A DNA stretch of 64,000 nt from an uncultured Candidatus Saccharibacteria bacterium (GTDB lineage Bacteria; Patescibacteriota; Minisyncoccia; Phycocordibacterales; UBA2100): the NCBI GenBank assembly GCA_964399865.1, contig CAYNRJ010000002.1, positions 97,108 to 161,107 of the forward strand, read 5' to 3'. The translations under genes and the position numbers were made by a program. A model generated the notes under the pieces. That model did not search any database and had not been told where the DNA came from. It was given only the letters and a program-made list of their open reading frames with translations. Shown here one piece after another: positions 1-25,411 of this stretch; position 1 is the stretch's first letter; each line of letters starts with the position of its first letter.

Positions 1-3000
1 CTCGCAACGATCAACTCAACCGCCATCACCGCAGGTGGTACGTTCACGATCACTGCTGCCTCCTCCACATTACTCACTGACACCAACAGATTCACAGGAG
101 GCAATGTCTTTTCAAACGCCACCTCCACCAATTTCGCCATCACAGGTATCTCTAATTCACTTCTTTCAACCAATGCAAACGGTTCGATTGTTGCAACAAC
201 ATCTCTTTCTACAAACATCCTCAATGGCACACTTAGTATCACAAACGGTGGCACTGGAACTTCAACCCCAGGAGCCTACGGTGATGTATTCACTTGGAAC
301 GGATCCAATTGGCAAGGCTTTGCAACCTCCACTCTTGGACTCGTGAAGTTCTCTGATCTCTCTATATATTCAACCTTCGGATATCCCTTCCCAAACAACG
401 CAACGACAACAGGTCTTGGTCTGTACGCTTCTACAACAATCGGCGCGGGAGGACAGGCGACAGGCTTAACTATTTCGGGAGGTGCAACAACCACGGGCAA
501 TGCATATTTTGCGGGGAGTGTTGGTATTGGGACGAATTCACCGCTCGGGGCACTGCAGGTCACTCAAGCTGCGAACTTGCCGCGGTACGGAATTGACGTT
601 GTGAGTAGCGATGACAACACGACACTCTCACTAACAAATACTGATACGGGAGGAGGGACGTGGTGGCTCGCGTCGACTGGCGGCAGTAGCTCATGGGGGC
701 AGGGAAAATTATTGTTCGGCGCCGGAGCGAATTGGCCGAGTGCGCCTGTGATGACGCTCGATTCAACTGGATACTTGGGGCTTGGCCTCACGTCGCCGGC
801 GACGAGACTCGACGTGCTTGGCACGGCAAGTTCGACGAATTTGTTTGTGAACACTACTGCCACAACGACAAATCTCGCAGTGACCGGAATCACAAGCTCA
901 CTGCTCAAAACAAACTCTCTCGGTCAGATCACCGCGGCAGTCGCCGGCACCGACTACGCAAACTTCCAATACCTCTTCCCATTGAACGCAACGACAACGG
1001 GTCTTGGTCTGTACGCTTCCACTACTATTGGTGCAGGAACTTCAGTCACGGGTCTTACAATTAGCGGAGGTGCTACGACGACAGGCAATTTGTTGGTGCA
1101 GGGAAGCGCAACCACAACGAACATTGCGGTGACTGGAACTGCCTCTTCTTCTGCTCTCATTATTTCTTCCGCAGGAGGATCTGGCACACGATGCCTCCAG
1201 GTTGGCGCTGATGGAACAGTTTCCGCAAACGGAAGCGCGTGTGGTACAGGAAGTGGAGGATTTGATTTCACGCCGACAACCTTTGGTGCAATTGCTGCCA
1301 ATTCCACCTCAACACTAATTGGGTTCTCTCAAGGCATTTTCTCTCTAGCGTCTTCTACTATTGGTGCCGGCGGACAAACAACAGGTCTCACTGTCTCAGG
1401 TGGAGCGACAACAACAGGGAATCAATACATTGGGGGAACTCTAAATGCTGGAGCAACGACGCTCTCATCTCTCACCCTCACCACTGCTCTCTCTGCAACG
1501 AATGGAGGAACTGGCCAATCGAGCTACACTACTGGAGACATTCTGTACGCTTCAGGCGCAAACACCCTTTCAAAATTACCAATAGGGAACGCGGGAGAGG
1601 TCCTTAAGATTGCGGGAGGCATTCCATCATGGGGTACAGATTTGAGTTCAGGAGGCGGCACTGGCGGCACATGGTCCACCACCACGTCTCAAGTCACAGG
1701 TACTCTCATCAACTATCCCAACAATACTTCAGACATCGTTGTAATCGGATCTACAGCAACCACATCTGCAGAATATTGGTTTGATCCAAATGCAGGAATT
1801 ACTTATCTTTCTGGCAACGTTGGTATCGGTACGGTCGCACCGCTCGCAAAAGTAACCATTGCTGACACATTGGGATCAGGCGCTCGCTATCTCGATATTG
1901 GAGATGACTCCTATCTCACGGATCTCGATACTGCAAATACGCTTGGTGTGTATGGCATTCAAGATTCAGCAATCGCATCGCTCAGATTGGGAAGTGGCGG
2001 CGGAACCATTTCAGGCGCATCGGGCAACATTGGTATCGGCGATTCGACACCAACATTCACTCTTGATGTGACGGGGAACGCTCGATTCACTTCCTTTGTT
2101 GACGCATCCCATTTTGTCGCGACGTCAACAACCAACATAAACTCATTCCCACTTCTTACTGCTACAACAGCCACGACGACAAATTTTGCAGTAACGAGCG
2201 TCACCTCTTCACTCCTCAAAACGAATTCACTCGGCCAGATCACCGCGGCAGTCGCCGGCACTGACTACACAAACTTCCAATTCCCTTGGACTGCAACAAC
2301 GTTCGGCTCCACAAATGCAAACTCAACCTCAACACTCATCGGCTTTACACAAGGAATCTACGCACTCGCTTCCTCTACTATCGGTGCAGGAGGGCAGACA
2401 ACAGGACTCACGATTTCAGGAGGGGCGACAACGACGGGGAACTTAATTGTGCAGGGAACAGGCACGTCAACCTTTGCGGGTGCGGTTGCTATTGGCAACG
2501 ACGGATCTGGCGCATACCAGGATGCAAACGATCTGGTCGTTGGTTCATTAACGGGCTCTAACGGTATCACTGTTCGTGCGGGTACTTCGGGGGTCTCAAA
2601 CGTATTCTTTGCAGACAGCGTTTCTGGCTCCGGACAATATTCGGGCATTATTTCATACAGCCATGCACTCGACAGATTCCAGATAACGACTGGATCTGCT
2701 GGGTACAGCGGCTCGCTTGGTATGTACATCACCTCTAGCGGCAACACTGCTATCGGCACAACGACCCCTTACAGCAAGCTCACTGCGTGGGGGACCGGCT
2801 CATTGTTTGAAGCAGTCACCAACGCATCGACAACAATCTTTAAGATTGGCCAGAATGGTGCAACTTCCACAAACTTCGCAATCACTGGAGTCATCTCCTC
2901 ACTCTTGAAGACTGATGCTTCTGGAAATATCGGTGCAGCAATCGCTGGTACCGATTACGCCAACTTCCAATATCTCTTCCCAAGTAACGCCACATCCACC

Positions 3001-6000
3001 ACCCTCACATTCGGTGCAGGACTTCTCTCGTCAGCATCTTCGACATTCTCTGCCAACCTAAACATCGCAACCACTTCGTCACTCCTTGCAACTAATGCAA
3101 ACGGCACCATCGTTGCAACAACATCTCTCTCAACAAACTTCCTCTCCGGCACTCTCGCAACCATCAACTCAACTGCAATCACTGCAGGAGGGACCTTCAC
3201 GATCACCGCCGCTTCTTCGACGCTTCTTGCAAACACCAACTACTGGAGCGGCGGCAACATCTTCACTAATGCAACAACAACCTCTCTATATATAGGCTCT
3301 CTTACGGGCCCGCTGCAGGCAATCGGTGGTCAGGTATCGGCAACATCCACTCTATCTATAGCGTACGGAGGCACAGGGCTCTCGACAGCTCCTTCATACG
3401 GTCAGCTACTAATGGGTAATAGCTCAGGAGCATACGCTCTCACGTCTACCTCTTCACTCGGACTCGCTTCCTTCGCATTTCCGTTTACTCCTGCAACAAG
3501 CTGGAACTCAACCTCAACTCTAATTCTCTTCTCACAGGGCATCATCGCGAATGCTTCCTCTACAATCGGAGGAGGCACTTCAGTCACTGGTCTTACTATC
3601 TCCGGCGGCGCAACGACGACAGGAAATGCCTACATCGCAGGTAATTTGGGTGTTGGTAGTAGCACTCCAAATTACAAACTCGATGTAAAGGGATTTGTAA
3701 ATGTTGATGAATTCTCTGGCTATAAGCAAGGAGGGAATACGATTCTCTATGCATCGACGACAAATAACGCGCTTGCCGTAGGTGCATCAAGCGCCGCGGC
3801 CTGGATGTCTGCTTCATCGACAGCTTGGAATAGCGTTGCAATTGGTGACGGAGCGCTCGGCACGACTCCTCTTAATGCGGGCTCTAACAATAATGTGGCG
3901 ATTGGAGCGAATTCTCTCAGAAATCTTACGACTGGCTCGAGTAATGTTGCAATAGGTAAAGACGCTCTTTACTCTGCTACTAGCGGCTCAGAAAACTTTG
4001 CACTCGGAGCGAGCGTCCTCTACTACAATAATGGCGATTATAACGTTGGTATAGGTTCAGGCGTACTCGGGTCAAATACTTCAGGTAGCTATAACATTGG
4101 CATAGGTAGGCTTTCGATGCAGTACAACACTGTTGGTGAGAATAACGTCGCGATCGGCGGTGCGACGCTTAATCAGGCAACCTCTTCAAGTAACAACACT
4201 GCGATCGGCTTTTTCGCGGGAGCTTCAATTTCCGGTGCGACAGGTGCTGTTGGTGCCGGCAACACTCTTCTTGGGCATCGAGCAGGAGGTGAGATCACTA
4301 CGGGAGGCTACAACACAATTATTGGATACTTTACGGGCTCAAACGTTACCACAGGAAGCAATAATATTCTTATCGGCCAGGATGTGCGCAGTGGACTTAG
4401 TGTGACGGCATCCGATCAGCTCAATATTGGTAATCTCCTCTTTGGTACGGGCCTTGGAAGCGGTACCACTCTTGGCACTGGGAACATTGGAATTGGTCTT
4501 GCGAACCCTGCCACCAAACTCGATGTTCTCGGCACCGCTTCCTCCACTAATCTCTTCGTCAATACAACTGCAACGACGACGAACCTCACAATCTCAGGCA
4601 TCACAAACTCACTTCTTTCTGCAAACTCTCTCGGCCAAGTGATCGCAACCTCAACGCTCTCAACGAACTACCTCTCAGGTACTCTCGCAACGATCAACTC
4701 AACAACTATCACGGCAGGCGGCACGTTCACGATCACTGCAGCATCCTCAACACTCCTTGCGAACACCAACTACTGGAGCGGCAGCAACACCTTCACCAAT
4801 GCCACCTCAACCAATTTCGCCATCACCTCGATTACTTCTTCTCTGCTAAAGACAAATTCAAGCGGTTCCATCGTTCCAGCTATTGCGGGCACTGACTATT
4901 CCAACTTCCAGTTCCCATGGACGGCGACGACATTCGGCGCGACATCGGCGAACTCAACTTCCACTCTCATCGGCTTCAACGCAGGACTCTACGCTCTCGC
5001 ATCTTCTACGATTGGCAATGGAACGCTCGGATTGACAGTGAGCGGTACTGCAACCACAACCGGCCGAGCATACTTTGGAGGGAATGTTGGCATCGGCATT
5101 GCAAATCCTGCGCACTTACTTGAGATAACTCCAACCGCTGACAACGCAAATCATTTTGTAATCAATAGTAGCAGCGGTGCGGATAGATTCCGAGTGGGGA
5201 CTGACGGGTCCGGTCACGGTTTCCTTACACTTTTTGATGGCTCAAGTAATCAAGATGTTTTGATTGGAGCAAATGGCATCTCGTACTTTAACGGCGGCAA
5301 TGTTGGTATCGGTAACAGTGCTCCGAACGAGAAGCTCAACGTCCAAGGTGCAATCGCAGGCCAAGCACTCTTTGCAACATCAAGCACGATTACTTCTGTG
5401 TTCACAGGTGGTGTGTATGTGACTGGTACGACGACTTTGGCAAACGCCACTTCAACAAATTTTGCGATTACTGCTGTCACCTCAACTCTCCTTAAAACAA
5501 ATTCGACAGGCGGAGTCATTCCCGCGATCGCAGGAACAGACTATTCAAACTTCCAGTTCCCATTCACTCCTGCTGCAAGTTGGAATTCGACTTCAACGTT
5601 GATCTTGTTCAGTAACGGTATCATTGCGAATGCTTCCTCTACTATTGGTGCGGGAGGGCAGGCGACAGGACTCACGATCTCAGGAGGCGCGACAACGACG
5701 GGGGACTTGAGAGTACAAGGAACTGCAACATCATCGTTTGCAGGAATCCTTTCCATCGGATCAACAACTCCAGCAGGAACTCCAGTCTTTTTTGTCGGAA
5801 CATCTTCGCCACTTCTTACCGTCACGAAGCCTCGTGGGTACGTTGGGATCGGAACTGCCTCTCCTACAAGCGTTCTCTACGTAAATACTCCGACAACAGA
5901 TATTGCGGCGGCGACATTCGCGAAAGCTCAGGCGGGAAGTGACACAGGCGCGTATCTCGAATTCACAGGCGCGTCAGGTGTTTCGCGTGGTTTCGTCGGC

Positions 6001-12000: not shown

Positions 12001-15000
12001 ACAGGGAATCTCTTCGTTACAGGATCTGGCACATCCACATTCGCAAATTATCTGGGCATCGGCACGACTTCGCCTTGGGGTAATGGTCTATTAACGGTCG
12101 GAACCTCTACGCCTCTACTATATGTAGATAAAACGAACGGCTATGTTGGTATGGGCACAACGACCCCAACTGCTCAACTTCAAGTCGGGGAGCAAGTAGC
12201 GGTTCCTTTTGCCTCAGGTCTCAACACATCTTTGGTAAAGTTCGGGCGAGAAATAATAGACTCTGGTTCTGTTGATCAGGAGACCGCGGTATTGCAGGTG
12301 GGGTCCAATATCAGATCTACGGGAAATACAGGAGAGATTCACGCAAGCATGTACACAGAGATGGAGACCAATGCTTTGAGTTACGGTAATTTCACAAACA
12401 GTCTCCTTGGTCACTCGATTAATATCGTGCACAGAGCTACAACAACAGTGGCAAACTTCCAGGCTCTGGATCCAGACATTCAGTTAGTTGCTGGTGCAGG
12501 ATCTGTAACCAACGCGATGGGCGTCGACATTGATGTGTCCCCTCAAGCGGGTTATACGGGGACAGTCACCAATGCATACGCGATTAAAGCGGATATCGAT
12601 AATGTATCCGGAGCGACGATAACCAATGCGTACGGGTTGCGCTTGGGTTTCACTAACGGCGGGACTCTGACAAACGGATATGGCGTCTACCTTACTGACG
12701 TACCTGCTACAAATAGTTATGGAATTTACCAAGCTGGGACAAACGACCTCAATTATTTCGGGGGCAATGTTGGAGTTGGCACAACATCTCCATTTGCCAA
12801 ACTCTCAGTGCACGGAGACACACTCGGCACATACAACTCGACCTTGTTCGCAGTTGCATCCTCGTCTCTTTCAGCAACGACAACAATCTTCTCCGTCGAC
12901 CAGCTCGGTGCAACCACGACAAACTTCGCCATCTCGAATGTCGCCTCCTCACTCCTGAAGACAACCGCAACAGGCGCTGTGATTCCGGCAGTCGCCGGCA
13001 CTGACTACGCAACTCCAGGACAGGCTTCGTTCCCATTCACTCCCGCAGTGGCATGGAACGCTACTTCAACTCTCATTCTCTTCTCGCAGGGAATCATTGC
13101 GAACGCATCTTCTACTATAGGCGCCGGCGGACAGACGACAGGCCTTACGATCTCTGGCGGAGCGACGACGACGGCGGATCTTGTCGTGGGCGGCGGGACA
13201 CTTAACATATCGAATCAAACTTTTAGCTCAGAGCAGACATACAGCCGGTTACTAAATCGCACGGTTGTGCAGCACTACCAAAACAGTTCCAATAATTATG
13301 TTCGAAATCTCGATATTGTTGCAGCGGGATATGATAGGCAATCCGTCATTCGATTCCTGAATCAGACACGAAATACTTCAGACCCAGTGGAAACAGTAAG
13401 AATTAATGAATCAGGAAATCTAGGTGTTGGCACAACATCTCCATTTGCCAAACTCTCAGTGCACGGAGACACACTCGGCACATACAACTCGACCTTGTTC
13501 GCAGTTGCATCCTCGTCTCTTTCAGCAACGACAACAATCTTCTCCGTCGACCAGCTCGGTGCAACCACGACAAACTTCGCCATCTCGAATGTCGCCTCCT
13601 CACTCCTGAAGACAACCGCAACAGGCGCTGTGATTCCAGCTGTTGCCGGCACTGACTACGCAAACTTCAGCTACCTGTTCCCAGTCAATGGATATGCCAC
13701 TACAACTGGGCTCGGGATCTTTGCCTCGACAACAATCGGCGCAGGCGGACAGACGACGGGACTCACCATCTCAGGAGGTGCGACCACAACAGGGAATCTC
13801 TTTGTCACCGGATCTGGTACGTCGACTTTTTCGAACTTCCTAGCGATCGGTACCTCATCTCCGTGGGGGAATGGCTTATTAAATGTAGGCACATCAAGTC
13901 CTCGACTATACGTCGACAACACAAGTGGCTATGTTGGTATTGGCACCACTACTCCTTCGTATCCGTTAACTGTTGCAGGCTCAAGTGCACTTATTTATAA
14001 CGAGACAGGATCGGCCTACCTGAATTTGAAGAGTGGGGTAAATGGTGATAACGCCATTAATGCGGGCATCAATTTCCAAGGAGCCGATGGTACAGACTTT
14101 GCTATAAGTTATGACCGCCGCGGTTGCTGCACACCGGGTCTTAACTTTTGGAGTTATATAGCAGGTGAATATAAAGAAGTCTTCTCCGTCGGGCTTAACA
14201 ATGGTCTCATTCTAAATAGATTCCCGGGCACACCGTATCCAGGCAACGTGTCCATGCAAACAGGATCAACGAGTGCAGCTATCCTCACCGTTGATGGAGG
14301 AGGAAGTTCAGGTGCAGCTGTAAAAGGCCTGGTAGTTCAAGGGGCTTCGAGTCAAACAGCCAATCTTCAAGAGTGGCAAAATAGTTCCGGTGTCGTTTTG
14401 GCAGCAGTAACAGCGGCAGGTAACTTCGGCATAGGTAACGGTAACGTCTCTCCAAACGAAAAACTCAATGTCCAAGGCGCTATCGCTGGTCAGGCCCTCT
14501 TTGCAACATCAAGCACAATGACGTCTGTGTTCACGGGCGGCGTATATGTGACTGGCACGACGACTTTGGCAAACGCCACCTCAACAAACTTTGCCGTCAC
14601 AGGCACCGCCTCAACCACAGCTCTCATCGTCTCGAACGCAGGTGGTACCGCAGGATGTGCGACATTCAGTTCAATCGGTCTTCTCTCAAATACAGGATCT
14701 GCGTGTGGTGGAAGTGGCAGCGCATTCCCATTCACTCCAACTACATTCGGCGCAACGTCAGCTAACTCAACTTCAACTCTCATTGGATTCACGCAGGGTA
14801 TCTACGCGCTCGCTTCTTCAACGATTGGTAACGGCACGCTTACGGGAGGGCTCACGATTAGCGGTGGGGCAACGACGACCGATAACTTATATGTCGGCGG
14901 ATATTTAGAGGTTGTGGATTCGGGCACTCTGGCGAACTTTAATGACGGGTCAGATGGTATCAATTTCCAGGTAAGTGGTGGAGTTGCTGGGATCATTGGC

Positions 15001-18000
15001 TACGATGGAAGTGCATACAACGATCTCGACTTGCGTGCTCTAGCTGGAGCAGGGTCGCAACTGTATTTGGACACAGGAGGCAACGTCGGTATCGGGACGA
15101 CAAGTCCGTCCACGTTGCTACATGTTCAAGGAGGGGTGATTAGGAGCAGTCATGCAAATGGGACATACGCTCTCGACATCGATGCTTCATCGGCAAGTGG
15201 CCCTGTGGCTACATTTGGAACTGGCTCGGACTCAGATGCGTACATGACCTTCGGGTCATATAACAGTATCAACAATCTTGATACTAAATCTCGAGATTTC
15301 CATCTGTTTTCAACGGCTGTTACCTCTGGCTTATTCTTCGAATCAAGCAATGGTAACGTTGGTATAGGCACAACCTCTCCATATGCGAAACTCTCTGTGG
15401 TCGGTCCGGTCGTCGCAGAATATTTCCACGCGACCTCAACAGCGGCGACATCAACATTCGCGGGCGGACTTTTCGTCAACAACGGTGCGATCACTCACGA
15501 CTTCTCGAGCGGCCTCACTTCAATAGACAACCTCGCCCTTGGCGCGCTCACGTTCGATACTGATGCTGGTATCGTGTCGTGGGTAGACATGCCAGTAACT
15601 TCCTCAGCGGCGGCAGGCACTGCCGAAAGCTACTCCGCTCAGATCGATGGCAACCCGCTTCTTACAATCTATGGAGAATCCAATGCTTCTGGTGGCGTGC
15701 AGAATATTGGCGTCGGTATCGGAACAACGACTCCGGGTGCGAAACTCGCAATTCAAGCCGGAGCAACAGATACATATAAAGCAAGCCTCTTCACGATAGG
15801 TAGTTCCACAAGCGCATACGCATCCTCGACACTATTTACAGTCCAGGCAACAGGAAACGTTGGCATCGGGACCTCTTCGCCGTCAACCGCACTGTACGTT
15901 CAGCACAATAACTCAAGCTCCGGAGTGCCGTCTGCTGTTGTTCAAAACACAAATACTGCAGGGAAGTCGCAGTATGCGGCCTTCAATGCAAACAGCACAG
16001 TGAGTGCGGGCTTCGGGGTTTTCAACTCAGCTATTGGGGTGTCTTCGCTTCAGGATGTTCCACACTTTTTCAGTTCCGGACAGCTTCAAATTATGTCTGA
16101 CGGAGGGACCGCCTCCGGTGGGACGAGTCCAATTATCTTTAAGGCAGGCGGGTACGATACAGCAGCAGAAGTTATGCGTATTGTTTCCGGCAAAGTCGGC
16201 ATCGGCACGACATCTCCTTGGGCGAAGCTCTCAGTCAATAATTTCACCGCGGCAGCAGGGTCAACAGCGCCACTCTTTATCGTTGCTTCTTCGACTGGAA
16301 CAGGAGCAACATCTACCGCGTTCTTTATTTCAAGTACAGGTGCAGTTGGGATAGGAACATCAACCACCGTTATTAATGGCACGGAAAGGGCGCTAGTCTT
16401 AGTCGCGAAAGGAACGACGAATGAGCTCATAGGTTTTTCTGGAAGTACGACGACAACCAAATGGCACCTTGGTCTGCAAGCGAAGGGCACAGATCTGAAT
16501 TTTGCGGAAACGGGGGTAGCGGACGGTAGATTGTACTTGCAAGCGGGAGGCAACGTCGGCATCGGTACGACATCGCCAACCGACACTCTCACGGTGGATG
16601 GCGCGGGTCGATTCACAGGTGCATATACGGAAGCAACTACGAACTTCGGTGTTCATGTCGGATACTTAGCTTCAACGCCTCGCATTCTTTTCGCAAACGG
16701 CAATTCTGCCCAGAACTGGCAGATCGATAACTCATCTGGGGACTTCAGGTGGTACACACCAGGCGTGGTGCATATGAATTTGTCCACCACAGGGGGTCTC
16801 ACACTTCCGAACACGACGAGCGGTATAATCAAGGCGAGCGGCACCGGTGATAGTTATTTCACCGGCGATCTCGGCATCGGTACTACATCACTACGTAGTG
16901 ATTCTGATCTACATATTTACAATTCAACAGGTGGAATCCTTGATCTTGAGACAAGCGATGCGGCGGTTATTTCCGGAGACGATCTCGGCACAATCCGCTT
17001 CTTTGCGACAGATGCTGGGTCTACCATCATGGCTCCGGGCGCATATATCCGCGCTGAAGCGAACGGTACATGGGGCGATACTGCGGACGTAGACGATGCT
17101 CCGACCTCGCTCCTCTTCTTTACGCAAAGCGATGGAGCAACCAACGATCTCGCCACTGCACGCATGCTCATCAACTCAAGTGGTAACGTTGGCGTTGCAT
17201 CTTCTACTCCCTGGGCGAAATTCGGCATTGAAAATACGGGATCAGACCGCTCGTTTGTCGTAGGCGACGTCGCAGGCGACCCGACCCCATTCGTCGTAGA
17301 TGCAAGCGGTAGCGTAGGCGTAGGATCATCAACTCCGTGGAGATTACTTTCGGTCGCGGGGACAGTTGCGTTCTCAGGGCTCACGTCGTCTGCAGCGGGA
17401 ACTGCAAACTTTAGTACAGTATGTCTCGCTGAACTAACCGGTGACATCGTGCAGAATGCAGATGATACATGTACGTCTTCTACTGCCACAATCAAACATG
17501 ATATTTTTGAATTAGACTTGAATGGTCTTGAGATTGTTTCTGCGATGACACCGAAGTCATATATATATAACGACGATCTCGACGAGGAAGTGTTCTGGGG
17601 ATTCATTGCAGAAGACATGGATCAAATTGATGATACGTTTGGCACCAAGTTGACTCACTATGAGAATGGGCAGCCGCGCGACTACCAGCAACGTGCCGTT
17701 CTTGCTGTCTTTACCGATGCAATACAGGAATTAAATTCTCGAACCGTGTTCGCCTCAAGTACATACGCATCCTCAACTCCTCGACTATTCGTAGATGCAA
17801 CAGGAAACATCGGGATCGGCACCACAACTCCTCAATACGATCTCCACGTTGTAGGTGATGTTGCCGCACAATCCTTTGTAAACATCTCAACCGAGAGCTC
17901 CAAGAAGAACATCAGTGAGATCGGTGAAGCAACAGAAGACCAATATCTCCAGAAACTTGAGAACATCGATCTTGTTAATTACCTCTACGTCACAGAATCA

Positions 18001-18666
18001 AGCACCTCCACCCCTCATCTAGGCCTTATTGCAGAAGACGCTCCAGCAGAAGTCCTTGCTGCAGGTGGAAAGGGCGTCGACCTCTACAAGTTCATCTCCT
18101 TCCTTACGGGTGCTTTGAAATCTCTTGCTGCTGATGTCAAAGAACTGAGCGAGAAAGTCGCAAGGTTCGCACAAGAGATCACATCGAGGAAGGTTGTCGC
18201 TACGGATACTCTCTGTGTCGGCAATACTTGTGTGACTGAAAGCCAGTTGCAGCAACTACTTGCCGGTCAGAGTGCTACGCCAACACCAGATCCTGAGGAA
18301 CCTCTTACCGGTACTGGCGGCGGTACCGACGAAGCCCCTGTCATCACTATTATCGGCGAGAGTACGATGCATATAGAAGTTGGAGCAGGGTATACAGATC
18401 AAGGAGCGCTCGTAGTAGATGATATAGATCCTAGTGTTGCGATCACCACGTTCGTCGACGGCGAACACGTCCTTTCTGTACAACTCGACACCTCATCCCC
18501 AAGAACATACGAAATAAAATATCGCGCAGTAGATTCAGCAGAGAATGTTACTGAGGCACTACGCACTGTCGAGGTCACGGAGCCAGTGGTGTCGGAATCA
18601 GACGCTGACGGTGAATCAATCCCAGACATTGGAACTAACTCCGAAGAGTCTGATACAGAGGTATGA
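1..18666 (+). CDS. giant repetitive surface fibre/adhesin-like protein, 5'-partial. The reading frame is open from window position 1, so the ORF-track GTG at 343 is internal and the true length exceeds 6,200 aa.
   Basis: Frame 1 translation of 1-342 (LATINSTAITAGGTFTITAASSTLL...) continues the same repeat family seen internally. The protein is extremely Gly/Thr/Ser/Ala-rich. About 25 copies of a ~120-aa repeat are present (motifs SLLKT, AGTDY, GGATTTGN, NVGIGTTSP-AKL). No stop codon occurs for 18.6 kb. Confidence 0.85.
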   Translation, partial: LATINSTAITAGGTFTITAASSTLLTDTNRFTGGNVFSNATSTNFAITGISNSLLSTNANGSIVATTSLSTNILNGTLSITNGGTGTSTPGAYGDVFTWNGSNWQGFATSTLGLVKFSDLSIYSTFGYPFPNNATTTGLGLYASTTIGAGGQATGLTISGGATTTGNAYFAGSVGIGTNSPLGALQVTQAANLPRYGIDVVSSDDNTTLSLTNTDTGGGTWWLASTGGSSSWGQGKLLFGAGANWPSAPVMTLDSTGYLGLGLTSPATRLDVLGTASSTNLFVNTTATTTNLAVTGITSSLLKTNSLGQITAAVAGTDYANFQYLFPLNATTTGLGLYASTTIGAGTSVTGLTISGGATTTGNLLVQGSATTTNIAVTGTASSSALIISSAGGSGTRCLQVGADGTVSANGSACGTGSGGFDFTPTTFGAIAANSTSTLIGFSQGIFSLASSTIGAGGQTTGLTVSGGATTTGNQYIGGTLNAGATTLSSLTLTTALSATNGGTGQSSYTTGDILYASGANTLSKLPIGNAGEVLKIAGGIPSWGTDLSSGGGTGGTWSTTTSQVTGTLINYPNNTSDIVVIGSTATTSAEYWFDPNAGITYLSGNVGIGTVAPLAKVTIADTLGSGARYLDIGDDSYLTDLDTANTLGVYGIQDSAIASLRLGSGGGTISGASGNIGIGDSTPTFTLDVTGNARFTSFVDASHFVATSTTNINSFPLLTATTATTTNFAVTSVTSSLLKTNSLGQITAAVAGTDYTNFQFPWTATTFGSTNANSTSTLIGFTQGIYALASSTIGAGGQTTGLTISGGATTTGNLIVQGTGTSTFAGAVAIGNDGSGAYQDANDLVVGSLTGSNGITVRAGTSGVSNVFFADSVSGSGQYSGIISYSHALDRFQITTGSAGYSGSLGMYITSSGNTAIGTTTPYSKLTAWGTGSLFEAVTNASTTIFKIGQNGATSTNFAITGVISSLLKTDASGNIGAAIAGTDYANFQYLFPSNATSTTLTFGAGLLSSASSTFSANLNIATTSSLLATNANGTIVATTSLSTNFLSGTLATINSTAITAGGTFTITAASSTLLANTNYWSGGNIFTNATTTSLYIGSLTGPLQAIGGQVSATSTLSIAYGGTGLSTAPSYGQLLMGNSSGAYALTSTSSLGLASFAFPFTPATSWNSTSTLILFSQGIIANASSTIGGGTSVTGLTISGGATTTGNAYIAGNLGVGSSTPNYKLDVKGFVNVDEFSGYKQGGNTILYASTTNNALAVGASSAAAWMSASSTAWNSVAIGDGALGTTPLNAGSNNNVAIGANSLRNLTTGSSNVAIGKDALYSATSGSENFALGASVLYYNNGDYNVGIGSGVLGSNTSGSYNIGIGRLSMQYNTVGENNVAIGGATLNQATSSSNNTAIGFFAGASISGATGAVGAGNTLLGHRAGGEITTGGYNTIIGYFTGSNVTTGSNNILIGQDVRSGLSVTASDQLNIGNLLFGTGLGSGTTLGTGNIGIGLANPATKLDVLGTASSTNLFVNTTATTTNLTISGITNSLLSANSLGQVIATSTLSTNYLSGTLATINSTTITAGGTFTITAASSTLLANTNYWSGSNTFTNATSTNFAITSITSSLLKTNSSGSIVPAIAGTDYSNFQFPWTATTFGATSANSTSTLIGFNAGLYALASSTIGNGTLGLTVSGTATTTGRAYFGGNVGIGIANPAHLLEITPTADNANHFVINSSSGADRFRVGTDGSGHGFLTLFDGSSNQDVLIGANGISYFNGGNVGIGNSAPNEKLNVQGAIAGQALFATSSTITSVFTGGVYVTGTTTLANATSTNFAITAVTSTLLKTNSTGGVIPAIAGTDYSNFQFPFTPAASWNSTSTLILFSNGIIANASSTIGAGGQATGLTISGGATTTGDLRVQGTATSSFAGILSIGSTTPAGTPVFFVGTSSPLLTVTKPRGYVGIGTASPTSVLYVNTPTTDIAAATFAKAQAGSDTGAYLEFTGASGVSRGFVGFTKHGGGSDTFFTGETADALAIRAEAAFQLGVGDLISMTAIDNGNIGIGDVSPASLFTVGANDAFQVNSSGVVAAATGITSSGNITFSGLSAGGVGVTGTGLLYSFSTSTWTFASSTLLSDTNRWTGGNVFSNATSTNFAITAVTSSLLKTNANGSIVPAIAGTDYVAGSSFFQFPWTATTFGSTAANSTSTLIGFTQGIYALASSTIGAGGQTTGLTISGGATTTGNAYFAGRVGIGTASPVTDLEVSRTYGKIARFYATAQTGIYLDVANDNNKGGYIGHSLPSMTSSVGTVNSGLWLSSYDGSNPGGTIKLATADTDQISFITGTTPVSRMSITSAGKVGIGTTSPVAQLTVATQNGANGSINKLFLVASSTASATTTLFSIDNTGLVSYTTLNGGPATTTALAITGVTSSLLKTDSAGNVLAAVAGTDYSNFGFPFTPSASWNSTSTLILFSQGIIANASSTIGAGGQATGLTISGGATTTGDLSVQGTATSSFIGVLSIGSTTPSGNALFSIGTSTPLIVVDKRTGNVGIGTSAPGATLDIFKASGTGLRIGQSGNYFISLGSSGIVSSRGAGAFVINSDHGINFQEDSTTVFSIADGAPANILSISSTGNVGVGTTSPYAKLSVVGEAVAAYFTATTTTNINTFPLLTSTTATTTNLAVTGVTSSLLKTNSLGQVTAAVAGADYANFQYLFPSNATTTALGLYASTTIGDGSQVGGLTISGGASTTRDFYFGTGAQVDFHDEIADKLYLYSNTYGIGIEASTLTNWSGTQFRWRVGGTSVTTGSERMLLTGSGLTVTGSATTSSNLVVQGNATTTNLAITGVTSSLLKTDASGNVLAAVAGTDYANFGYLFPVDGYATTTGLGIFASTTIGDGSQAGGLTVSGNATTSGRLFVGNSIGSVNTASANGPRAINLIDTSAVMRVWRYAATTTTNNPAIELIQGTNTNGSSADNTWWDMFTSADGGTPDSERFSIRRRTGGSNGVFFSIHSSGNVGIGNNVPSEKLNVQGAIAGQGLFATSSAMTSVFTGGLTVSGTTTLASATSTNFAITNLTSTLLKTNSDGSVVAAVAGTDYATPGQASFPFTPSASWNSTSTLILFSQGIIANASSTIGAGGQGTGLTISGGATTTGHSYFAGSLGISTTTFNSAQFSLQATSSNATLATLYSSTGSTKLFDATVVSDVPLFTFGKKAGTKLTQYTQVEFTDENGNNSDWSFRVAGNSYPIINLGSSGGTLASPSNVSPPTEYSNKISGLILGHGYINSAWRDTSGISFGYDATPSGSAYSSNITFLTTSGTTITERMRLSTAGNLGIGNNSPTEKLNVQGIAQAQAFNATSTAFTSQLLGGLIVSGTTTLANATSTNLSVSGTASTTALIVSGAGGAAGCATFAADGTISNTGSACGTGGGTFSWTATTFGSIAANSTSTLIGFTQGIYALASSTIGDGTQTGGLTISGGATTTGQLTVSGTATSSIAGTLSLGSTTPIGSNSRLFIQSPSSGSAFRIARATSAGSFIDVSLSSSGNTAATTITDGGSNTLTVAAGSAGISLNDANASPVKIHTATALNTSSFTVGSGTTTFVGGRVGVGTSSPFAKFSIHAPSSGTYFSTIFAVASSSLAATTTVFSVDGLGATTTNFAISNVTSSLLKTTATGAVIPAVAGTDYATPGQASFPFTPAVAWNATSTLILFSQGIIANASSTIGDGTQAGGLTINGGATTTRNLVLTGTAANLVLGSNYLSGDGGDEGIFVDSSGYVGIGTTTPPSKLSVQSGGGTNAILVTNSGNGSNSTALHVNSNGSGTFYAYDLDANLTALYSNEAARLASGGLYLWTNSATDASGGGTPDTSFSRLSAGKIGVGTGAANEIDGTLIAGSIGIGTTSPYAKLSVVGETVAAYFTATTTTNINTFPLLTATTATTTNLAVTGITSSLLKTNSLGQLTAAVAGTDYATPGQASFPFTPAVAWNATSTLILFSQGIIANASSTIGAGGQTTGLTISGGATTTGNLFVTGSGTSTFANYLGIGTTSPWGNGLLTVGTSTPLLYVDKTNGYVGMGTTTPTAQLQVGEQVAVPFASGLNTSLVKFGREIIDSGSVDQETAVLQVGSNIRSTGNTGEIHASMYTEMETNALSYGNFTNSLLGHSINIVHRATTTVANFQALDPDIQLVAGAGSVTNAMGVDIDVSPQAGYTGTVTNAYAIKADIDNVSGATITNAYGLRLGFTNGGTLTNGYGVYLTDVPATNSYGIYQAGTNDLNYFGGNVGVGTTSPFAKLSVHGDTLGTYNSTLFAVASSSLSATTTIFSVDQLGATTTNFAISNVASSLLKTTATGAVIPAVAGTDYATPGQASFPFTPAVAWNATSTLILFSQGIIANASSTIGAGGQTTGLTISGGATTTADLVVGGGTLNISNQTFSSEQTYSRLLNRTVVQHYQNSSNNYVRNLDIVAAGYDRQSVIRFLNQTRNTSDPVETVRINESGNLGVGTTSPFAKLSVHGDTLGTYNSTLFAVASSSLSATTTIFSVDQLGATTTNFAISNVASSLLKTTATGAVIPAVAGTDYANFSYLFPVNGYATTTGLGIFASTTIGAGGQTTGLTISGGATTTGNLFVTGSGTSTFSNFLAIGTSSPWGNGLLNVGTSSPRLYVDNTSGYVGIGTTTPSYPLTVAGSSALIYNETGSAYLNLKSGVNGDNAINAGINFQGADGTDFAISYDRRGCCTPGLNFWSYIAGEYKEVFSVGLNNGLILNRFPGTPYPGNVSMQTGSTSAAILTVDGGGSSGAAVKGLVVQGASSQTANLQEWQNSSGVVLAAVTAAGNFGIGNGNVSPNEKLNVQGAIAGQALFATSSTMTSVFTGGVYVTGTTTLANATSTNFAVTGTASTTALIVSNAGGTAGCATFSSIGLLSNTGSACGGSGSAFPFTPTTFGATSANSTSTLIGFTQGIYALASSTIGNGTLTGGLTISGGATTTDNLYVGGYLEVVDSGTLANFNDGSDGINFQVSGGVAGIIGYDGSAYNDLDLRALAGAGSQLYLDTGGNVGIGTTSPSTLLHVQGGVIRSSHANGTYALDIDASSASGPVATFGTGSDSDAYMTFGSYNSINNLDTKSRDFHLFSTAVTSGLFFESSNGNVGIGTTSPYAKLSVVGPVVAEYFHATSTAATSTFAGGLFVNNGAITHDFSSGLTSIDNLALGALTFDTDAGIVSWVDMPVTSSAAAGTAESYSAQIDGNPLLTIYGESNASGGVQNIGVGIGTTTPGAKLAIQAGATDTYKASLFTIGSSTSAYASSTLFTVQATGNVGIGTSSPSTALYVQHNNSSSGVPSAVVQNTNTAGKSQYAAFNANSTVSAGFGVFNSAIGVSSLQDVPHFFSSGQLQIMSDGGTASGGTSPIIFKAGGYDTAAEVMRIVSGKVGIGTTSPWAKLSVNNFTAAAGSTAPLFIVASSTGTGATSTAFFISSTGAVGIGTSTTVINGTERALVLVAKGTTNELIGFSGSTTTTKWHLGLQAKGTDLNFAETGVADGRLYLQAGGNVGIGTTSPTDTLTVDGAGRFTGAYTEATTNFGVHVGYLASTPRILFANGNSAQNWQIDNSSGDFRWYTPGVVHMNLSTTGGLTLPNTTSGIIKASGTGDSYFTGDLGIGTTSLRSDSDLHIYNSTGGILDLETSDAAVISGDDLGTIRFFATDAGSTIMAPGAYIRAEANGTWGDTADVDDAPTSLLFFTQSDGATNDLATARMLINSSGNVGVASSTPWAKFGIENTGSDRSFVVGDVAGDPTPFVVDASGSVGVGSSTPWRLLSVAGTVAFSGLTSSAAGTANFSTVCLAELTGDIVQNADDTCTSSTATIKHDIFELDLNGLEIVSAMTPKSYIYNDDLDEEVFWGFIAEDMDQIDDTFGTKLTHYENGQPRDYQQRAVLAVFTDAIQELNSRTVFASSTYASSTPRLFVDATGNIGIGTTTPQYDLHVVGDVAAQSFVNISTESSKKNISEIGEATEDQYLQKLENIDLVNYLYVTESSTSTPHLGLIAEDAPAEVLAAGGKGVDLYKFISFLTGALKSLAADVKELSEKVARFAQEITSRKVVATDTLCVGNTCVTESQLQQLLAGQSATPTPDPEEPLTGTGGGTDEAPVITIIGESTMHIEVGAGYTDQGALVVDDIDPSVAITTFVDGEHVLSVQLDTSSPRTYEIKYRAVDSAENVTEALRTVEVTEPVVSESDADGESIPDIGTNSEESDTEV
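3750..4450 (+). repeat. Hep_Hag / YadA-head-like short beta-roll repeats inside the giant gene (NNVAIG, SNVAIGKDAL, YNVGIGSGVLG, NNTAIGFFAG, NNILIGQDV)
   Basis: Recurrent N-x-(A/V)-(I/L)-G-x-x-(A/S)-L heptad-like motifs, typical of trimeric adhesin heads and phage tail-fibre repeats. Confidence 0.6.
10981..13760 (+). repeat. nested, nearly identical intragenic direct repeats. A ~120-nt unit occurs at about 10981, 11827 and 12997. A ~207-nt unit is identical at about 12779-12985 and 13434-13640.
   Basis: Identical nucleotide strings were read directly. They are mirrored by identical antisense ORF-track peptides (12753..13001 equals 13362..13652; 11835..12038 is almost identical to 13005..13208 and 10989..11180). 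Confidence 0.85.
17473..18060 (+). other. two tandem peptidase-S74 / intramolecular-chaperone-like (tail-fibre auto-processing) modules in the C-terminal region of the giant protein
   Basis: TSSTATIKHDIFELDLNGLEIVSAMTPKSYIYNDDLDEEVFWGFIAEDMDQI and STESSKKNISEIGEATEDQYLQKLENIDLVNYLYV...HLGLIAEDAPAEVL match the S-D-x-R-L-K-x-N-I ... Y-x-Y ... G-F-I-A-Q-E pattern of the endosialidase chaperone domain. An Ig-like module (PVITIIGESTMHIEVGAGYTDQGALVVDD...) follows. Confidence 0.6.
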
Positions 18667-21760: not shown

Positions 21761-22311
21761 GACCAGTACTGTTCATTATTGTTTTGCTCATAGTGGGCAC
21801 TGCCACGGTGTTTTTCATTTCGTCGCGCCAGAGTGTGGTTGTGGGAAATACTCTGACTTTTGAACCGAAAGTTGCTGAGCGGCCGATTGTGCAACCGAAG
21901 CCGGATAGTTCCGGCGTATCGACCTATAAAGATTCAGATTATGGCTTCATACTCACATATCCTCCTGAGTACAAGGTAGCGAAGATAAAAAATGAGGAAG
22001 CGGACACATTTCTGCTCCAAGACAGCACTGGAACGGGAATGCAAATAATTGTAAGTCCATTTGATGAACCTGCGGAGGCTTTCACTGTCGCACGCGTGCG
22101 ACAAGATTTGCCGGACCTCCCGATGCGAAATGTGCGGATCGCAAAAATGCCACTTGCCGGTATAGAAGGTATTCTGTTCGAGAGTTCCGGCGGGGGGTTT
22201 GGGGGGAGTGTCGAATTCTGGTTTGTACATAAGGGTTATTTATATCAGGCGAGCACATACCTAAGCCAAATGAGCCTTTTTGAGGATGTGATGGGTACAA
22301 TCCGATTCTGA
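21757..22311 (+). CDS. small N-terminally membrane-anchored hypothetical protein
   Basis: ORF with ATGA overlap to the LamG gene. N-terminal TM segment (VLFIIVLLIVGTATVFFI). Confidence 0.55.
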   Translation: MRPVLFIIVLLIVGTATVFFISSRQSVVVGNTLTFEPKVAERPIVQPKPDSSGVSTYKDSDYGFILTYPPEYKVAKIKNEEADTFLLQDSTGTGMQIIVSPFDEPAEAFTVARVRQDLPDLPMRNVRIAKMPLAGIEGILFESSGGGFGGSVEFWFVHKGYLYQASTYLSQMSLFEDVMGTIRF

Positions 22312-25403: not shown

Positions 25404-25411
25404 TTCTGCAC

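What the first reader, a model, noticed from the sequence alone, without database searches (positions are those of the whole stretch)
1..18666. Giant (>6,200 aa) mosaic fibre protein with tail-fibre-type auto-processing modules
A single uninterrupted frame codes a Gly/Thr/Ser-rich fibre. It combines YadA/Hep_Hag-like beta-roll repeats, about 25 copies of a ~120-aa repeat, two tandem peptidase-S74-like intramolecular chaperone modules and a terminal Ig-like domain. S74 domains normally drive trimer folding and then self-cleave in phage tail spikes, but no phage structural genes are nearby. This points to a cellular surface fibre, possibly the host-attachment organelle of an episymbiont. The gene also runs off the 5' edge of the window.
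Basis: partly seen in the sequence, partly recalled or inferred. Interest (0 to 1): 0.7.

Follow-up and report, generated by a model that had tools for sequence, protein, structure and literature searches.

The report
Giant membrane-anchored tail-fibre-like surface fibre
A tiny-genome Parcubacteria-type bacterium encodes a 6,938-residue cell-surface fibre built from phage-tail-fibre and adhesin parts, at a chromosomal spot shared by many relatives, which makes it a strong untested candidate for how these bacteria grip their hosts.

Summary

New findings:
- The missing N-terminus is an HTH_17-like domain plus the protein's only transmembrane helix.
- 31 capping-loop motifs and one 160-aa domain match Bdellovibrio MAT fibres.
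- The host is a Parcubacteria/Paceibacteria (CPR) bacterium.
- Homologous large S74 fibre genes lie directly upstream of GAPDH-RpiB-Rpe-transketolase in 31 of 69 informative Patescibacteria loci.
- The S74-B type module is nearly absent from viral contigs.

Verdict: a cell-encoded, membrane-anchored, probably trimeric, self-processing surface fibre. It is a giant CPR variant of the MAT/tail-fibre adhesin kind. Host attachment is inferred, not shown.

The parts
1..18666 (+). C-terminal 6,221 codons plus stop of a 6,938-codon fibre gene. The first 717 codons (HTH_17-like domain, one transmembrane helix, start of the fibre) lie upstream of the window.
   Evidence: Open frame. P0343 tail is 100% identical over 6,221 aa. 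The only hydrophobic segment is at full-length aa 124-149. The N-terminal family hits Pfam HTH_17 in 14 of 15 members; this protein's own N-terminus scores 17 bits, below cut-off.
112..16875 (+). Span holding 22 matches to a ~100-aa conserved cassette (consensus ATTTNFAITgVTSSLLKTNsxGxxxxAVAGTDYA..FPFTP....NSTSTLIxFxQGIxAxASSTIGAGGQTTGLTISGGATTTGN), interspersed with variable inserts. Window aa positions: 38-98, 132-175, 285-368, 369-481, 722-820, 953-1016, 1128-1217, 1522-1587, 1599-1697, 1814-1908, 2132-2236, 2401-2493, 2656-2738, 2817-2903, 3044-3143, 3359-3470, 3631-3727, 3912-4009, 4303-4398, 4520-4605, 4857-4969, 5564-5625.
   Evidence: Self-HMM search. Alignment A3 of 17 copies, mean column identity 59%. 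The profile finds 663 protein clusters elsewhere but only 1 of 80 S74-related genome loci.
3643..4530 (+). YadA-head-like beta-roll module (aa 1215-1510) built of 17-residue repeats N-x-A-[IV]-G-x-x-A-L-x-x-N-T-x-G-x-x.
514..17880 (+). Span holding 31 'capping-loop' motifs G-x-[VIL]-G-[IVLM]-[GANS]-x2-4-P-x3-4-[LVIF] (for example GNVGIGTTSPYAKL), which bound the variable inserts.
   Evidence: Regex list with positions. The same motif is the published Bdellovibrio MAT/S74 capping-loop consensus (PMC10769870). PDB sequence hits to MAT structures 8OJN, 8OND and 8OML run through this motif.
15802..16290 (+). Insert domain (aa 5268-5430) homologous to the beta-helix region of Bdellovibrio MAT fibre Bd2133.
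   Evidence: phmmer against PDB: 8OND_A residues 8-169, E=6.3e-8.
17464..17745 (+). S74 module A (aa 5822-5915). Predicted catalytic Ser5827 (nt 17479-17481) and Lys5832 (nt 17494-17496). It is preceded by a Cys5808-Cys5824 pair that is invariant in the family.
   Evidence: Pfam PF13884 at 28.5 bits against a cut-off of 22. In the family alignment C, C, S and K are invariant. The profile hits solved S74 domains 8JOV 5e-10, 6F45 4e-8, T5 pb1 5e-7 and MYRF 6.5e-7, with Ser and Lys aligned.
17866..18210 (+). S74 module B (aa 5956-6070). Predicted catalytic Ser5963 (nt 17887-17889) and Lys5968 (nt 17902-17904). It is preceded by its own capping loop GNIGIGTTTPQYDL and followed by a long helix.
   Evidence: Pfam PF13884 at 25.9 bits. 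Family alignment A2 has S and K invariant. The profile hits the MYRF ICA domain 7DC3 at E=4.7e-6 over 127 positions, with Ser aligned to MYRF residue 587 and Lys to K592. AF2 pLDDT is above 90 here.
18211..18240 (+). Conserved Cys-x4-Cys motif LCVGNTCVTE, followed by a Pro/Thr-rich linker.
   Evidence: Sequence position. The same motif follows the C-terminal modules of many relatives.
18343..18576 (+). Ig-like domain (Bact_surface_Ig-like / DUF5011, aa 6115-6192), followed by an acidic tail to aa 6221.
   Evidence: Pfam PF16403 at 46.8 bits. AF2 pLDDT 93-97. Foldseek PDB hits are Big_3, Rib and cadherin-type Ig folds.
18663..19652 (+). Membrane-anchored class-A beta-lactamase-like / serine hydrolase gene. 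Its ATG overlaps the fibre stop (ATGA).
   Evidence: Pfam Beta-lactamase2 at 2e-37. Overlap and N-terminal hydrophobic helix. Present downstream of the fibre in 3 related loci.
19649..21760 (+). Secreted protein with three Laminin_G_3 (concanavalin-like lectin) domains. Its start overlaps the previous stop.
   Evidence: Pfam Laminin_G_3 at 1e-56 with 3 stretches. Signal-like N-terminus. A homologue lies downstream of the fibre gene in 16 related loci, including L069.
21757..22311 (+). 184-aa membrane-anchored protein of unknown function. Its start overlaps the previous stop.
   Evidence: No Pfam hit. N-terminal helix. A homologue is present in 10 related loci.
22367..28841 (+). Synteny anchor: GAPDH, a 659-aa Cys-rich secreted protein, RpiB, Rpe, transketolase N-half, PCC-domain protein, transketolase C-half.
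   Evidence: Pfam. The same genes lie downstream of the homologous fibre gene on the same strand in 31 of 69 informative loci.

Best explanation
The gene encodes a 6,938-aa (696 kDa) cell-surface fibre of a Parcubacteria/Paceibacteria (CPR) bacterium.

Shown:
- An N-terminal HTH_17-like domain (about aa 1-80, full-length numbering) is followed by the protein's only hydrophobic helix (aa 124-149).
- The remaining ~6,790 aa are a Gly/Thr/Ser/Ala-rich mosaic. About 25 conserved ~100-aa cassettes alternate with variable inserts. The inserts are bounded by the V-G-x-G...P...L capping loops typical of trimeric S74/MAT beta-helices. One insert is a YadA-head-like beta-roll.
- The C-terminus carries two tandem S74 intramolecular-chaperone protease modules with intact Ser-x4-Lys dyads, then an Ig-like domain.

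Inferred mechanism:
1. The helix acts as a signal anchor. The HTH stays in the cytoplasm and the fibre is exported.
2. The C-terminal S74 modules nucleate and check trimerisation of the intertwined fibre, as in endosialidase, T5 pb1 and Bdellovibrio Bd3182.
3. They then cut themselves off in front of Ser5827 and Ser5963 (window numbering). This releases an S74-A/mini-stalk piece and an S74-B/Ig piece.
4. What remains is a membrane-tethered homotrimer of ~6,390 aa per chain (636 kDa per chain), ending in a small disulphide-bridged tip.
5. Scaling from MAT fibres (0.4-0.7 A per residue) gives a length of roughly 0.25-0.45 um.

The most likely role is adhesion to a host cell or surface. The variable inserts, the YadA-like head, and possibly the co-operonic lectin-domain protein would supply binding surfaces. 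My confidence that this is a cell-encoded, self-processing, trimeric surface fibre is about 0.75. My confidence that it specifically mediates host attachment is about 0.45.
For: - Open frame and full length.
- S74 modules above the Pfam cut-off. The catalytic Ser and Lys are invariant in both sub-families and align to solved S74 domains, namely MYRF, T5 pb1, 8JOV and 6F45.
- 31 capping loops, plus a 160-aa domain matching Bd2133 at E=6e-8. The MAT paper defines the same loop consensus and shows S74 self-cleavage, trimer structure and surface location (PMC10769870).
- PHROG tail-fibre families hit only the last ~1,000 aa.
- There is a single N-terminal hydrophobic segment in this protein. Among the complete relatives examined, most have exactly one, always N-terminal, and none has more than one. 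HTH_17 hits 14 of 15 N-termini of the family.
- Cellular context and taxonomy.
- Conserved position upstream of GAPDH-RpiB-Rpe-Tkt in 31 of 69 informative Patescibacteria loci, including complete genome CP174360.1.
- Near absence from viral contigs.
- ATGA-coupled downstream genes all encode exported proteins.
- The first cultured Paceibacteria member is an obligate host-attached parasite whose adhesins are unknown (PMC12281837).
Against: - Nothing here demonstrates expression, export, trimerisation, cleavage or binding.
- The protein's own N-terminal HTH score is below Pfam's cut-off (17 against 27 bits).
- Structure models are monomer predictions of what is expected to be an intertwined trimer. 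The C-terminal model has low confidence outside S74-B and the Ig domain, with S74-A at pLDDT 70-84.
- Tandem S74 followed by an Ig domain is not the classical terminal arrangement, so the cleavage order and the fate of the fragments are guesses.
- The lifestyle of this particular organism is unknown.
- The DNA upstream of the gene was not seen.
- Short-read assemblies of the same organism break inside the gene, so the exact repeat number rests on one 264-kb NCBI contig that I could not inspect.
Confidence: 0.7

Rival explanations
1. It is a general envelope or matrix fibre (S-layer-like coat, cell-cell cohesion, biofilm or particle attachment) and not a host-specific recognition device.
For: The gene sits at a conserved core-genome position in many lineages, as a housekeeping envelope component might. 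The composition is low-complexity Gly/Thr/Ser/Ala. No specific ligand-binding tip remains after the predicted cleavage. Neighbouring genes include a peptidoglycan-type serine hydrolase.
Against: Length and insert content differ greatly between species at the same locus, from about 1,100 to 6,938 aa. The cassette occurs in only 1 of 80 related loci. That fits diversifying recognition better than a conserved coat. The closest characterised relatives, MAT fibres and phage fibres, are recognition adhesins. YadA-type heads are adhesive modules.
Confidence: 0.15
2. It is a transmembrane contact sensor or regulator built like ToxR/CadC. The extracellular fibre would detect host contact or tension. 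The cytoplasmic HTH would bind DNA, either regulating genes or tethering the chromosome at the attachment site.
For: An HTH_17-like domain directly precedes the single transmembrane helix in this protein and in many relatives. One relative has two tandem HTH copies. HTH_17 is a DNA-binding family by annotation.
Against: Other relatives at the same syntenic locus have a plain signal peptide plus an 'INYQGKLT' domain instead, so the HTH is dispensable for the fibre. DNA binding is untested. This protein's own HTH score is sub-threshold. The domain could simply be a cytoplasmic anchoring or partner-binding module.
Confidence: 0.08
3. It is a prophage or phage-derived tail fibre gene, that is, a virion component.
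For: S74 domains and PHROG tail-fibre families match the C-terminal ~1,000 aa. NCBI names relatives 'tail fiber domain-containing protein'. The upstream DNA was not seen.
Against: The 45 kb downstream is housekeeping. The locus is conserved next to GAPDH and pentose-phosphate genes in 31 of 69 informative loci, including a complete genome. Upstream neighbours in complete relatives are secreted proteins, GatB, MreB and DnaX-like genes by inspection. There is only one partial hit in 2.9 million viral contigs. The N-terminus is a membrane anchor. GC content matches the rest of the window.
Confidence: 0.02
4. The giant ORF is an assembly artefact or a non-functional relic.
For: Short-read (Logan) assemblies of the same organism break within the gene. 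One internal 250-nt pair is 97% identical.
Against: 6,221 codons run without a stop, and the domain order is coherent from HTH/TM to S74/Ig. An identical 6,938-aa product was called independently in the protein collection. Three independent Logan contigs reproduce the C-terminal 728-1,299 codons together with the downstream gene. Most repeats are only 60-83% identical at DNA level. Relatives of 3,000-5,800 aa show the same plan.
Confidence: 0.03

Closest known systems
Bdellovibrio bacteriovorus MAT (mosaic adhesive trimer) fibres, S74 subfamily, e.g. Bd3182; also Bd2133 (Caulton et al. 2024, PMC10769870)
   Same: Both are cell-encoded and not viral. Both are long fibres of beta-helix/prism modules bounded by the V-G-G/N-x-x-x-P-x-x-x-L capping loops. 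Both end in a C-terminal S74 chaperone-protease with an S-x4-K dyad. Both have a mosaic, swappable module content. There is direct sequence similarity: 8OND E=6e-8 over 160 aa, and 8OJN/8OML through the loops. Both belong to bacteria that live on other cells.
   Different: This protein is about 7 times longer (6,938 against ~1,000 aa). Its N-terminus is an HTH_17-like domain plus a transmembrane anchor, where MATs have a signal peptide plus a conserved 130-aa beta-rich domain. It has two tandem S74 modules followed by an Ig-like domain, where MATs have a terminal S74. It adds a ~100-aa cassette repeated ~25 times and a YadA-like head. The phylum differs (CPR, probably monoderm), and the gene sits at a conserved chromosomal locus. 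No experimental data exist for it.
Phage tail fibres and tailspikes with a C-terminal intramolecular chaperone (K1F endosialidase, T5 pb1 L-shaped fibre, 8JOV, 6F45)
   Same: The S74 modules are homologous, with aligned catalytic Ser and Lys. PHROG tail-fibre families hit the C-terminal region. The 'GGTG...G.LL.G' and 'GGATTTGN' fibre motifs are shared. The expected logic of trimerise, then self-cleave, is the same.
   Different: This is not a virion gene. It sits in a conserved cellular neighbourhood, has a membrane anchor, is far larger, and its S74 is neither terminal nor single.
Eukaryotic MYRF (myelin regulatory factor) ICA domain
   Same: The S74-type domain matches at E about 5e-6 to 7e-7. 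It is one of the few other proteins that combine a DNA-binding domain, a membrane span and an S74 domain that is not C-terminal.
   Different: The order and topology differ. MYRF is DBD-S74-TM, and cleavage frees the DBD. Here the order is HTH-TM-fibre-S74, so cleavage happens outside the cell and cannot release the HTH.
Trimeric autotransporter adhesins (YadA, UspA1, BpaC, BoaA, CbpF)
   Different: There is no Pfam Hep_Hag hit in this protein or in the homologues tested. The repeat is 17 residues long. No YadA-type C-terminal membrane anchor is detected in the Pfam scans. The module is an internal insert in an S74-matured fibre.

Membership tests
Peptidase_S74 / intramolecular chaperone auto-processing domain | Match to the family model above its curated threshold | tested here: met
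   Two separate hits, 28.5 and 25.9 bits against a gathering score of 22. Family profiles hit solved S74 domains at E 5e-10 to 5e-6.
Peptidase_S74 / intramolecular chaperone auto-processing domain | Catalytic Ser-x4-Lys dyad (SDxxxK) | tested here: met
   Module A has S5827/K5832 (STATIK). Module B has S5963/K5968 (STESSK). Both residues are invariant in the family alignments and align to the Ser and Lys of MYRF, 8JOV and 6F45.
Peptidase_S74 / intramolecular chaperone auto-processing domain | Located at the extreme C-terminus, directly after a trimeric beta-helical stalk | tested here: not met
   A capping-loop stalk motif precedes each module. However, module A is followed by a mini-stalk and module B, and module B by a helix, a linker and an Ig-like domain. 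This S74-S74-Ig or S74-Ig order recurs in Patescibacteria relatives.
Peptidase_S74 / intramolecular chaperone auto-processing domain | Trimer-dependent autoproteolysis | not testable with these tools
   Needs expression of the fragment and of Ser-to-Ala mutants.
Bdellovibrio MAT (mosaic adhesive trimer) superfamily | Fibre of beta-helix/prism modules with the V-G-G/N-pi-x-x-P-x-x-x-L capping loops | tested here: met
   31 motifs. Sequence hits to 8OND, 8OJN, 8OML, 8OL4 and 8ON4. Consensus taken from PMC10769870.
Bdellovibrio MAT (mosaic adhesive trimer) superfamily | Signal peptide followed by the conserved ~130-aa beta-rich N-terminal domain | tested here: not met
   The N-terminus is an HTH_17-like domain, a helical linker and a transmembrane helix at aa 124-149, followed by an Asn/Thr-rich and heptad-like stretch. 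The MAT N-domain sequence itself was not available for a direct comparison.
Bdellovibrio MAT (mosaic adhesive trimer) superfamily | Surface location and binding of prey epitopes | not testable with these tools
   Experimental property.
Trimeric autotransporter adhesins (YadA/Hep_Hag) | Hep_Hag / YadA head sequence repeats (Pfam) | tested here: not met
   No hit at E<=10 for aa 1101-1500, and none in six homologues.
Trimeric autotransporter adhesins (YadA/Hep_Hag) | YadA-like left-handed beta-roll head fold | tested here: met
Trimeric autotransporter adhesins (YadA/Hep_Hag) | C-terminal YadA-type beta-barrel membrane anchor | tested here: not met
   Pfam scans of the whole window product report only S74 and the Ig-like domain at the C-terminus.
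Phage tail fibre (virion component) | Encoded among phage structural genes or present in viral genomes | tested here: not met
   The downstream 45 kb is cellular. The cellular synteny is conserved in relatives. Only one partial hit was found in IMG/VR. The DNA immediately upstream in this genome was not seen.
HTH_17 (PF12728) DNA-binding domain | Match to the family model above its curated threshold | tested here: inconclusive
   The protein's own N-terminus scores 17 bits, E=0.0074, against a cut-off of 27. In contrast, 14 of 15 aligned N-termini of relatives hit HTH_17 at E<=0.01 (best 6e-10), and the syntenic L022 protein scores 35 bits.

The most novel reading that the evidence does not exclude
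The conserved locus fibre-(184-aa protein)-(triple lectin protein)-GAPDH would be the main host-recognition determinant of Paceibacteria, diversified by swapping cassettes and inserts. The HTH-TM-fibre architecture would form a single-polypeptide link from the host surface to the symbiont's DNA: a ToxR-like contact sensor or chromosome tether whose sensor is a ~0.3-um trimeric fibre matured by tandem S74 proteases. The evidence does not exclude this. The HTH is common but not universal in the family, and nothing is known about its ligands.
Probability: 0.12. Interest if true: 0.85.

Novelty: new variant of a known kind. Interest (0 to 1): 0.6.

Why it matters
How Parcubacteria/Paceibacteria find and hold their hosts is unknown. 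They are a very large and almost uncultured part of the CPR. The first cultured member is an obligate parasite for which only pili have been suggested as attachment factors (PMC12281837).

This analysis turns an anonymous 'tail fiber domain-containing protein' into a concrete, testable candidate. It is a membrane-tethered fibre related to Bdellovibrio MAT fibres, with defined cleavage sites. It lies at a locus that can be found by synteny in many genomes, next to GAPDH and the transketolase genes. Its length and module content vary strongly between species.

The analysis also extends the MAT/S74 cellular-fibre idea from a predatory proteobacterium to the CPR. It shows unusual architectural variants: an HTH-plus-TM N-terminus, tandem S74 followed by Ig, and a YadA-like head inside an S74 fibre. 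I found no paper in the searchable library that links CPR with S74 fibres. This is absence of evidence in that library only.

Tried and rejected
- An exact 60-mer from the window start was absent from genome contigs and from metagenome contigs, so the contig could not be extended at the DNA level.
- The look-up of encoding contigs on the neighbour gene and on GyrB returned only 2-5 kb Logan contigs that break inside or near the fibre gene. The 263,858-bp NCBI contig that carries identical proteins is unnamed and was not retrievable.
- Alignment A1 was too divergent for the search for related loci. It was replaced by the tighter A2.
- Foldseek on the multi-domain C-terminal model returned only Ig-fold hits. 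S74 identity was therefore established by sequence profiles instead.
- Pfam on the 717-aa N-terminus gave nothing at E<=1. The HTH assignment rests on the family alignment. A profile search of PDB with the HTH family gave only weak hits.
- I suspected that many relatives use a Peptidase_G2-type chaperone in place of S74 (motif DYAEMFP...). Pfam gave only a sub-threshold 22.3-bit hit in one of them, so this is left as unproven.
- Four ORFs of exactly 237 aa turned out to be unrelated.
- Papers on Patescibacteria attachment (PMC11880426, PMC10633639) contain nothing about such fibres.
Full report
**Observation.** Frame 1 of the + strand is open from base 1 to the TGA at 18664-18666, which is 6,221 codons. 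The other two forward frames are full of stops. The product is 15% Thr, 14% Gly, 12% Ser and 11% Ala. GC content is about 0.50 and does not differ from the rest of the window. The ORF list shows 343..18666 only because 343 is the first listed start codon; the frame itself continues to base 1.

A Pfam scan of the whole product finds only Peptidase_S74 (two stretches) and Bact_surface_Ig-like.
- Scanned separately, both S74 modules exceed the gathering score of 22. S74-A covers aa 5828-5878 at 28.5 bits and S74-B covers aa 5967-6016 at 25.9 bits.
- The Ig-like domain (aa 6115-6192) scores 46.8 bits.
- The proposed Hep_Hag region (aa 1101-1500) gives no Pfam hit even at E<=10.
- PHROGs tail-fibre and tail families match only the last ~1,000 aa.

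**Repeat architecture.** A self-built HMM finds 22 matches in the window to a ~100-aa cassette, several of them partial. The copies are not tandem. They lie 160-590 aa apart, separated by variable inserts. At DNA level the copies are 60-83% identical, with one 250-nt pair at 97%. The ORF is therefore not a collapsed-repeat artefact, although the repeats explain why short-read assemblies break there.

Thirty-one copies of the motif G-x-[VIL]-G-[IVLM]-x..P-x3-L (for example GNVGIGTTSPYAKL) bound the inserts.

**Closest characterised relatives.** Sequence searches of the PDB hit Bdellovibrio bacteriovorus proteins 8OJN, 8OND (Bd2133) and 8OML through exactly this motif. One insert, aa 5268-5430, matches 160 residues of Bd2133 at E=6e-8. 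These are the 'mosaic adhesive trimer' (MAT) fibres (PMC10769870). According to that paper:
- they are cell-surface trimeric beta-helix/prism fibres of a predator;
- 13 of 21 end in an S74 domain with SDxxxK;
- self-cleavage at S782 was shown for Bd3182;
- the capping-loop consensus is V-G-G/N-pi-x-x-P-x-x-x-L;
- every MAT has a conserved 130-aa N-terminal domain after the signal peptide.

**The S74 modules.** Homologues of the C-terminal 522 aa (98 hits, best 36-42% identity) come almost entirely from Patescibacteria. NCBI names them 'tail fiber domain-containing protein' or 'DUF5011 domain-containing protein'. The S74-S74-Ig and S74-Ig(1-3) orders recur among them.

The two modules belong to distinct sub-families.
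- In the S74-B alignment, Ser and Lys of NISTRxxKKDI are invariant. The profile matches the MYRF ICA domain (7DC3) over 127 positions at E=4.7e-6, with the Ser aligned to MYRF residue 587 and the Lys to K592.
- In the S74-A alignment, two Cys, the Ser and the Lys are invariant (C5808, C5824, S5827, K5832). The profile hits solved tail-fibre chaperone domains with the dyad aligned: 8JOV at 5e-10, 6F45 at 4e-8, T5 pb1 at 5e-7 and MYRF at 6.5e-7.

An AF2 model of aa 5740-6221 is confident for S74-B and the Ig domain (pLDDT above 90) and moderate for S74-A. Foldseek confirms the Ig fold.

**The 'Hep_Hag-like' stretch.** It consists of 17-residue repeats N-x-A-[IV]-G-x-x-A-L-x-x-N-T-x-G-x-x. It has more than 2,312 homologues. 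Many are 350-520-aa proteins from several phyla that end in S74, and JGI labels a few of them 'trimeric autotransporter adhesin'. None of six tested hits Hep_Hag.

**True N-terminus.** DNA extension failed. A profile of the cassette, searched against 1.84 billion representative proteins, found 663 clusters at E<=1e-3. The top hit, P0343, is 6,938 aa with 25 cassette matches. Its last 6,221 aa are identical to the window product, so 717 aa lie upstream.

The N-terminus reads MTEEIILDGKRYVVVDSAAKEFGRTREYLMTQCRLGKVEGRRVGRIWYVNHASLVAF... and is followed by the only hydrophobic segment of the whole protein, at aa 124-149. It is 32% identical (E=9e-12) to the N-terminus of the syntenic protein of genome CP174360.1. 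That protein hits Pfam HTH_17 at 35 bits. HTH_17 matches 14 of 15 aligned N-termini of the family, while this protein's own score is 17 bits, below the cut-off. P0343 is the longest of the 150 listed hits; the next are 5,777 and 5,111 aa.

**Organism and context.** Downstream genes are ATGA-coupled and encode exported proteins: a beta-lactamase-like hydrolase, a protein with three Laminin_G_3 domains and a 184-aa protein. After them come GAPDH, RpiB, Rpe, a split transketolase, a release factor, PheS, GyrB, DnaE and others. GyrB is 100% identical to a protein on an unnamed 263,858-bp NCBI contig. It is 78-84% identical to GyrB of Candidatus Parcubacteria, Paceibacterota and Kaiserbacteria.

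**Relatives in genomes.** A scan of one genome per species with the S74-B alignment kept the best 80 loci. Nearly all carry Patescibacteria-group or unclassified labels, and one (L067) is labelled Pseudomonadales. The ORFs carrying the match are large:
- 11 loci run more than 3,333 codons off the 10-kb flank;
- complete ORFs mostly reach 1,800-3,661 codons.

Among complete relatives, most have exactly one hydrophobic segment, always N-terminal, and none has more than one. It either follows an HTH_17-like domain or acts as a signal peptide followed by an 'INYQGKLT' domain.

In 31 of the 69 loci with at least 2.5 kb downstream, the fibre gene is followed on the same strand by GAPDH and then usually RpiB, Rpe and transketolase. 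A triple-lectin protein lies in between in 16 loci and the 184-aa protein in 10. Upstream neighbours of complete relatives look cellular by inspection. The same alignment found only one partial hit (capping loop only) in 2.9 million viral contigs. The cassette is lineage-restricted, occurring in 1 of the 80 loci.

**Interpretation.** The sequence evidence shows a cell-encoded, N-terminally membrane-anchored mosaic fibre with two intact S74 modules at a conserved chromosomal locus of a CPR lineage.

By established knowledge of S74 domains (endosialidase, T5 pb1, MYRF, Bd3182), the inferred mechanism is as follows:
1. The protein is exported.
2. It trimerises from the C-terminus.
3. It self-cleaves before S5827 and S5963.
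4. A tethered trimer of about 6,390 aa per chain remains (636 kDa per chain).

Scaling from the MAT dimensions in PMC10769870 gives a length of roughly 0.25-0.45 um. Host or surface adhesion is the most likely role but is untested. The first cultured Paceibacteria member is a host-attached obligate parasite (PMC12281837).

**Rivals.** Four alternatives are weighed in the rival-explanations section: a general envelope fibre, an HTH-based contact sensor, a prophage fibre and an assembly artefact.

**Novelty.** I found no paper in the searchable library linking CPR with S74 fibres. I rate this a new variant of a known kind, namely MAT/tail-fibre-like S74 adhesin fibres. It is distinguished by its size, the HTH-plus-TM N-terminus, tandem S74 followed by Ig, the cassette/insert plan, an internal YadA-like head and the conserved locus.

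Noticed in passing
window 38940-40073 (-): A 377-aa PheS-like protein has the class II core (tRNA-synt_2d) fused to a C-terminal FDX-ACB anticodon-binding domain. From my own knowledge, this architecture is that of monomeric mitochondrial-type PheRS, and not that of the bacterial alpha subunit. I did not check whether a PheT gene exists.
   Followed up: no
window 26557-28841 (+): The transketolase is split into N- and C-halves, with a PCC-domain (PF03479) gene inserted between them. The split Tkt arrangement recurs in the related loci.
   Followed up: partly
window 50001-52000: GC rises to 0.59 against about 0.50 elsewhere. The region has only overlapping, low-complexity ORFs on both strands and no Rfam hit. 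Its nature is unknown.
   Followed up: no
window 23424-25403 (+): A 659-aa secreted, Cys-rich protein with internal repeats (...CT..S..C...) and no Pfam hit lies between GAPDH and RpiB.
   Followed up: no
window 47090-49600, 54420-55916, 56803-59061 (+): Three large ORFs (836, 498 and 752 aa) have no Pfam match at E<=1e-3.
   Followed up: no
window 12763-13012 and 13414-13663: This is the only near-identical internal DNA repeat in the fibre gene (250 nt, 97%). It implies a recent duplication or gene conversion of one cassette-plus-flank unit.
   Followed up: partly
relatives P0411 (3,935 aa) and P0354 (2,451 aa): Fibre homologues carry intein-like inserts (Cys...His-Asn-Thr boundaries with an endonuclease-sized interior) inside the extracellular fibre region. 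This rests on inspection only.
   Followed up: no
relatives P0353, P0357, P0385, P0384, P0373, P0348, P0432, P0380: Instead of S74, many cassette-bearing relatives end in a different conserved module (...DYAEMFP...PLAGVVS..PG...RPVAL.GRVP.KV..E.G.I..GD.I..S..PGVG.KA), followed by the same LC.G.TC.T motif. Pfam Peptidase_G2 scores only 22.3 bits, below its cut-off of 25, and at a different position in P0385. This may be an alternative intramolecular chaperone.
   Followed up: partly
relatives P0344, P0347, P0368, P0355, P0396, P0379, P0365, P0488, P0411: Several giant relatives contain runs of '...YAYVAD...GL.I.DVSNP..P..VG...' repeats. By eye these look like LVIVD-type beta-propeller repeats inserted in the fibre. 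The window protein lacks them.
   Followed up: no
relative P0355 N-terminus; locus L015 247-915: P0355 has two tandem HTH_17-like domains before its transmembrane helix. In L015 a separate 222-aa gene starting with the same HTH motif lies just upstream of the fibre gene.
   Followed up: no
window 30948-32303 (+): A 451-aa protein has a weak SLT_2 lytic transglycosylase match (25.3 bits against a cut-off of 24.3) and a coiled-coil N-terminal part. It may be cell-wall remodelling or host-wall attack.
   Followed up: no
loci L030, L038, L082 upstream of the fibre gene: A recurring set of three or four signal-peptide proteins (about 230-515 aa, for example '...SGNYSIQSDSINFGG...') precedes the fibre gene in several relatives. 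I did not test whether these are fibre-associated.
   Followed up: no
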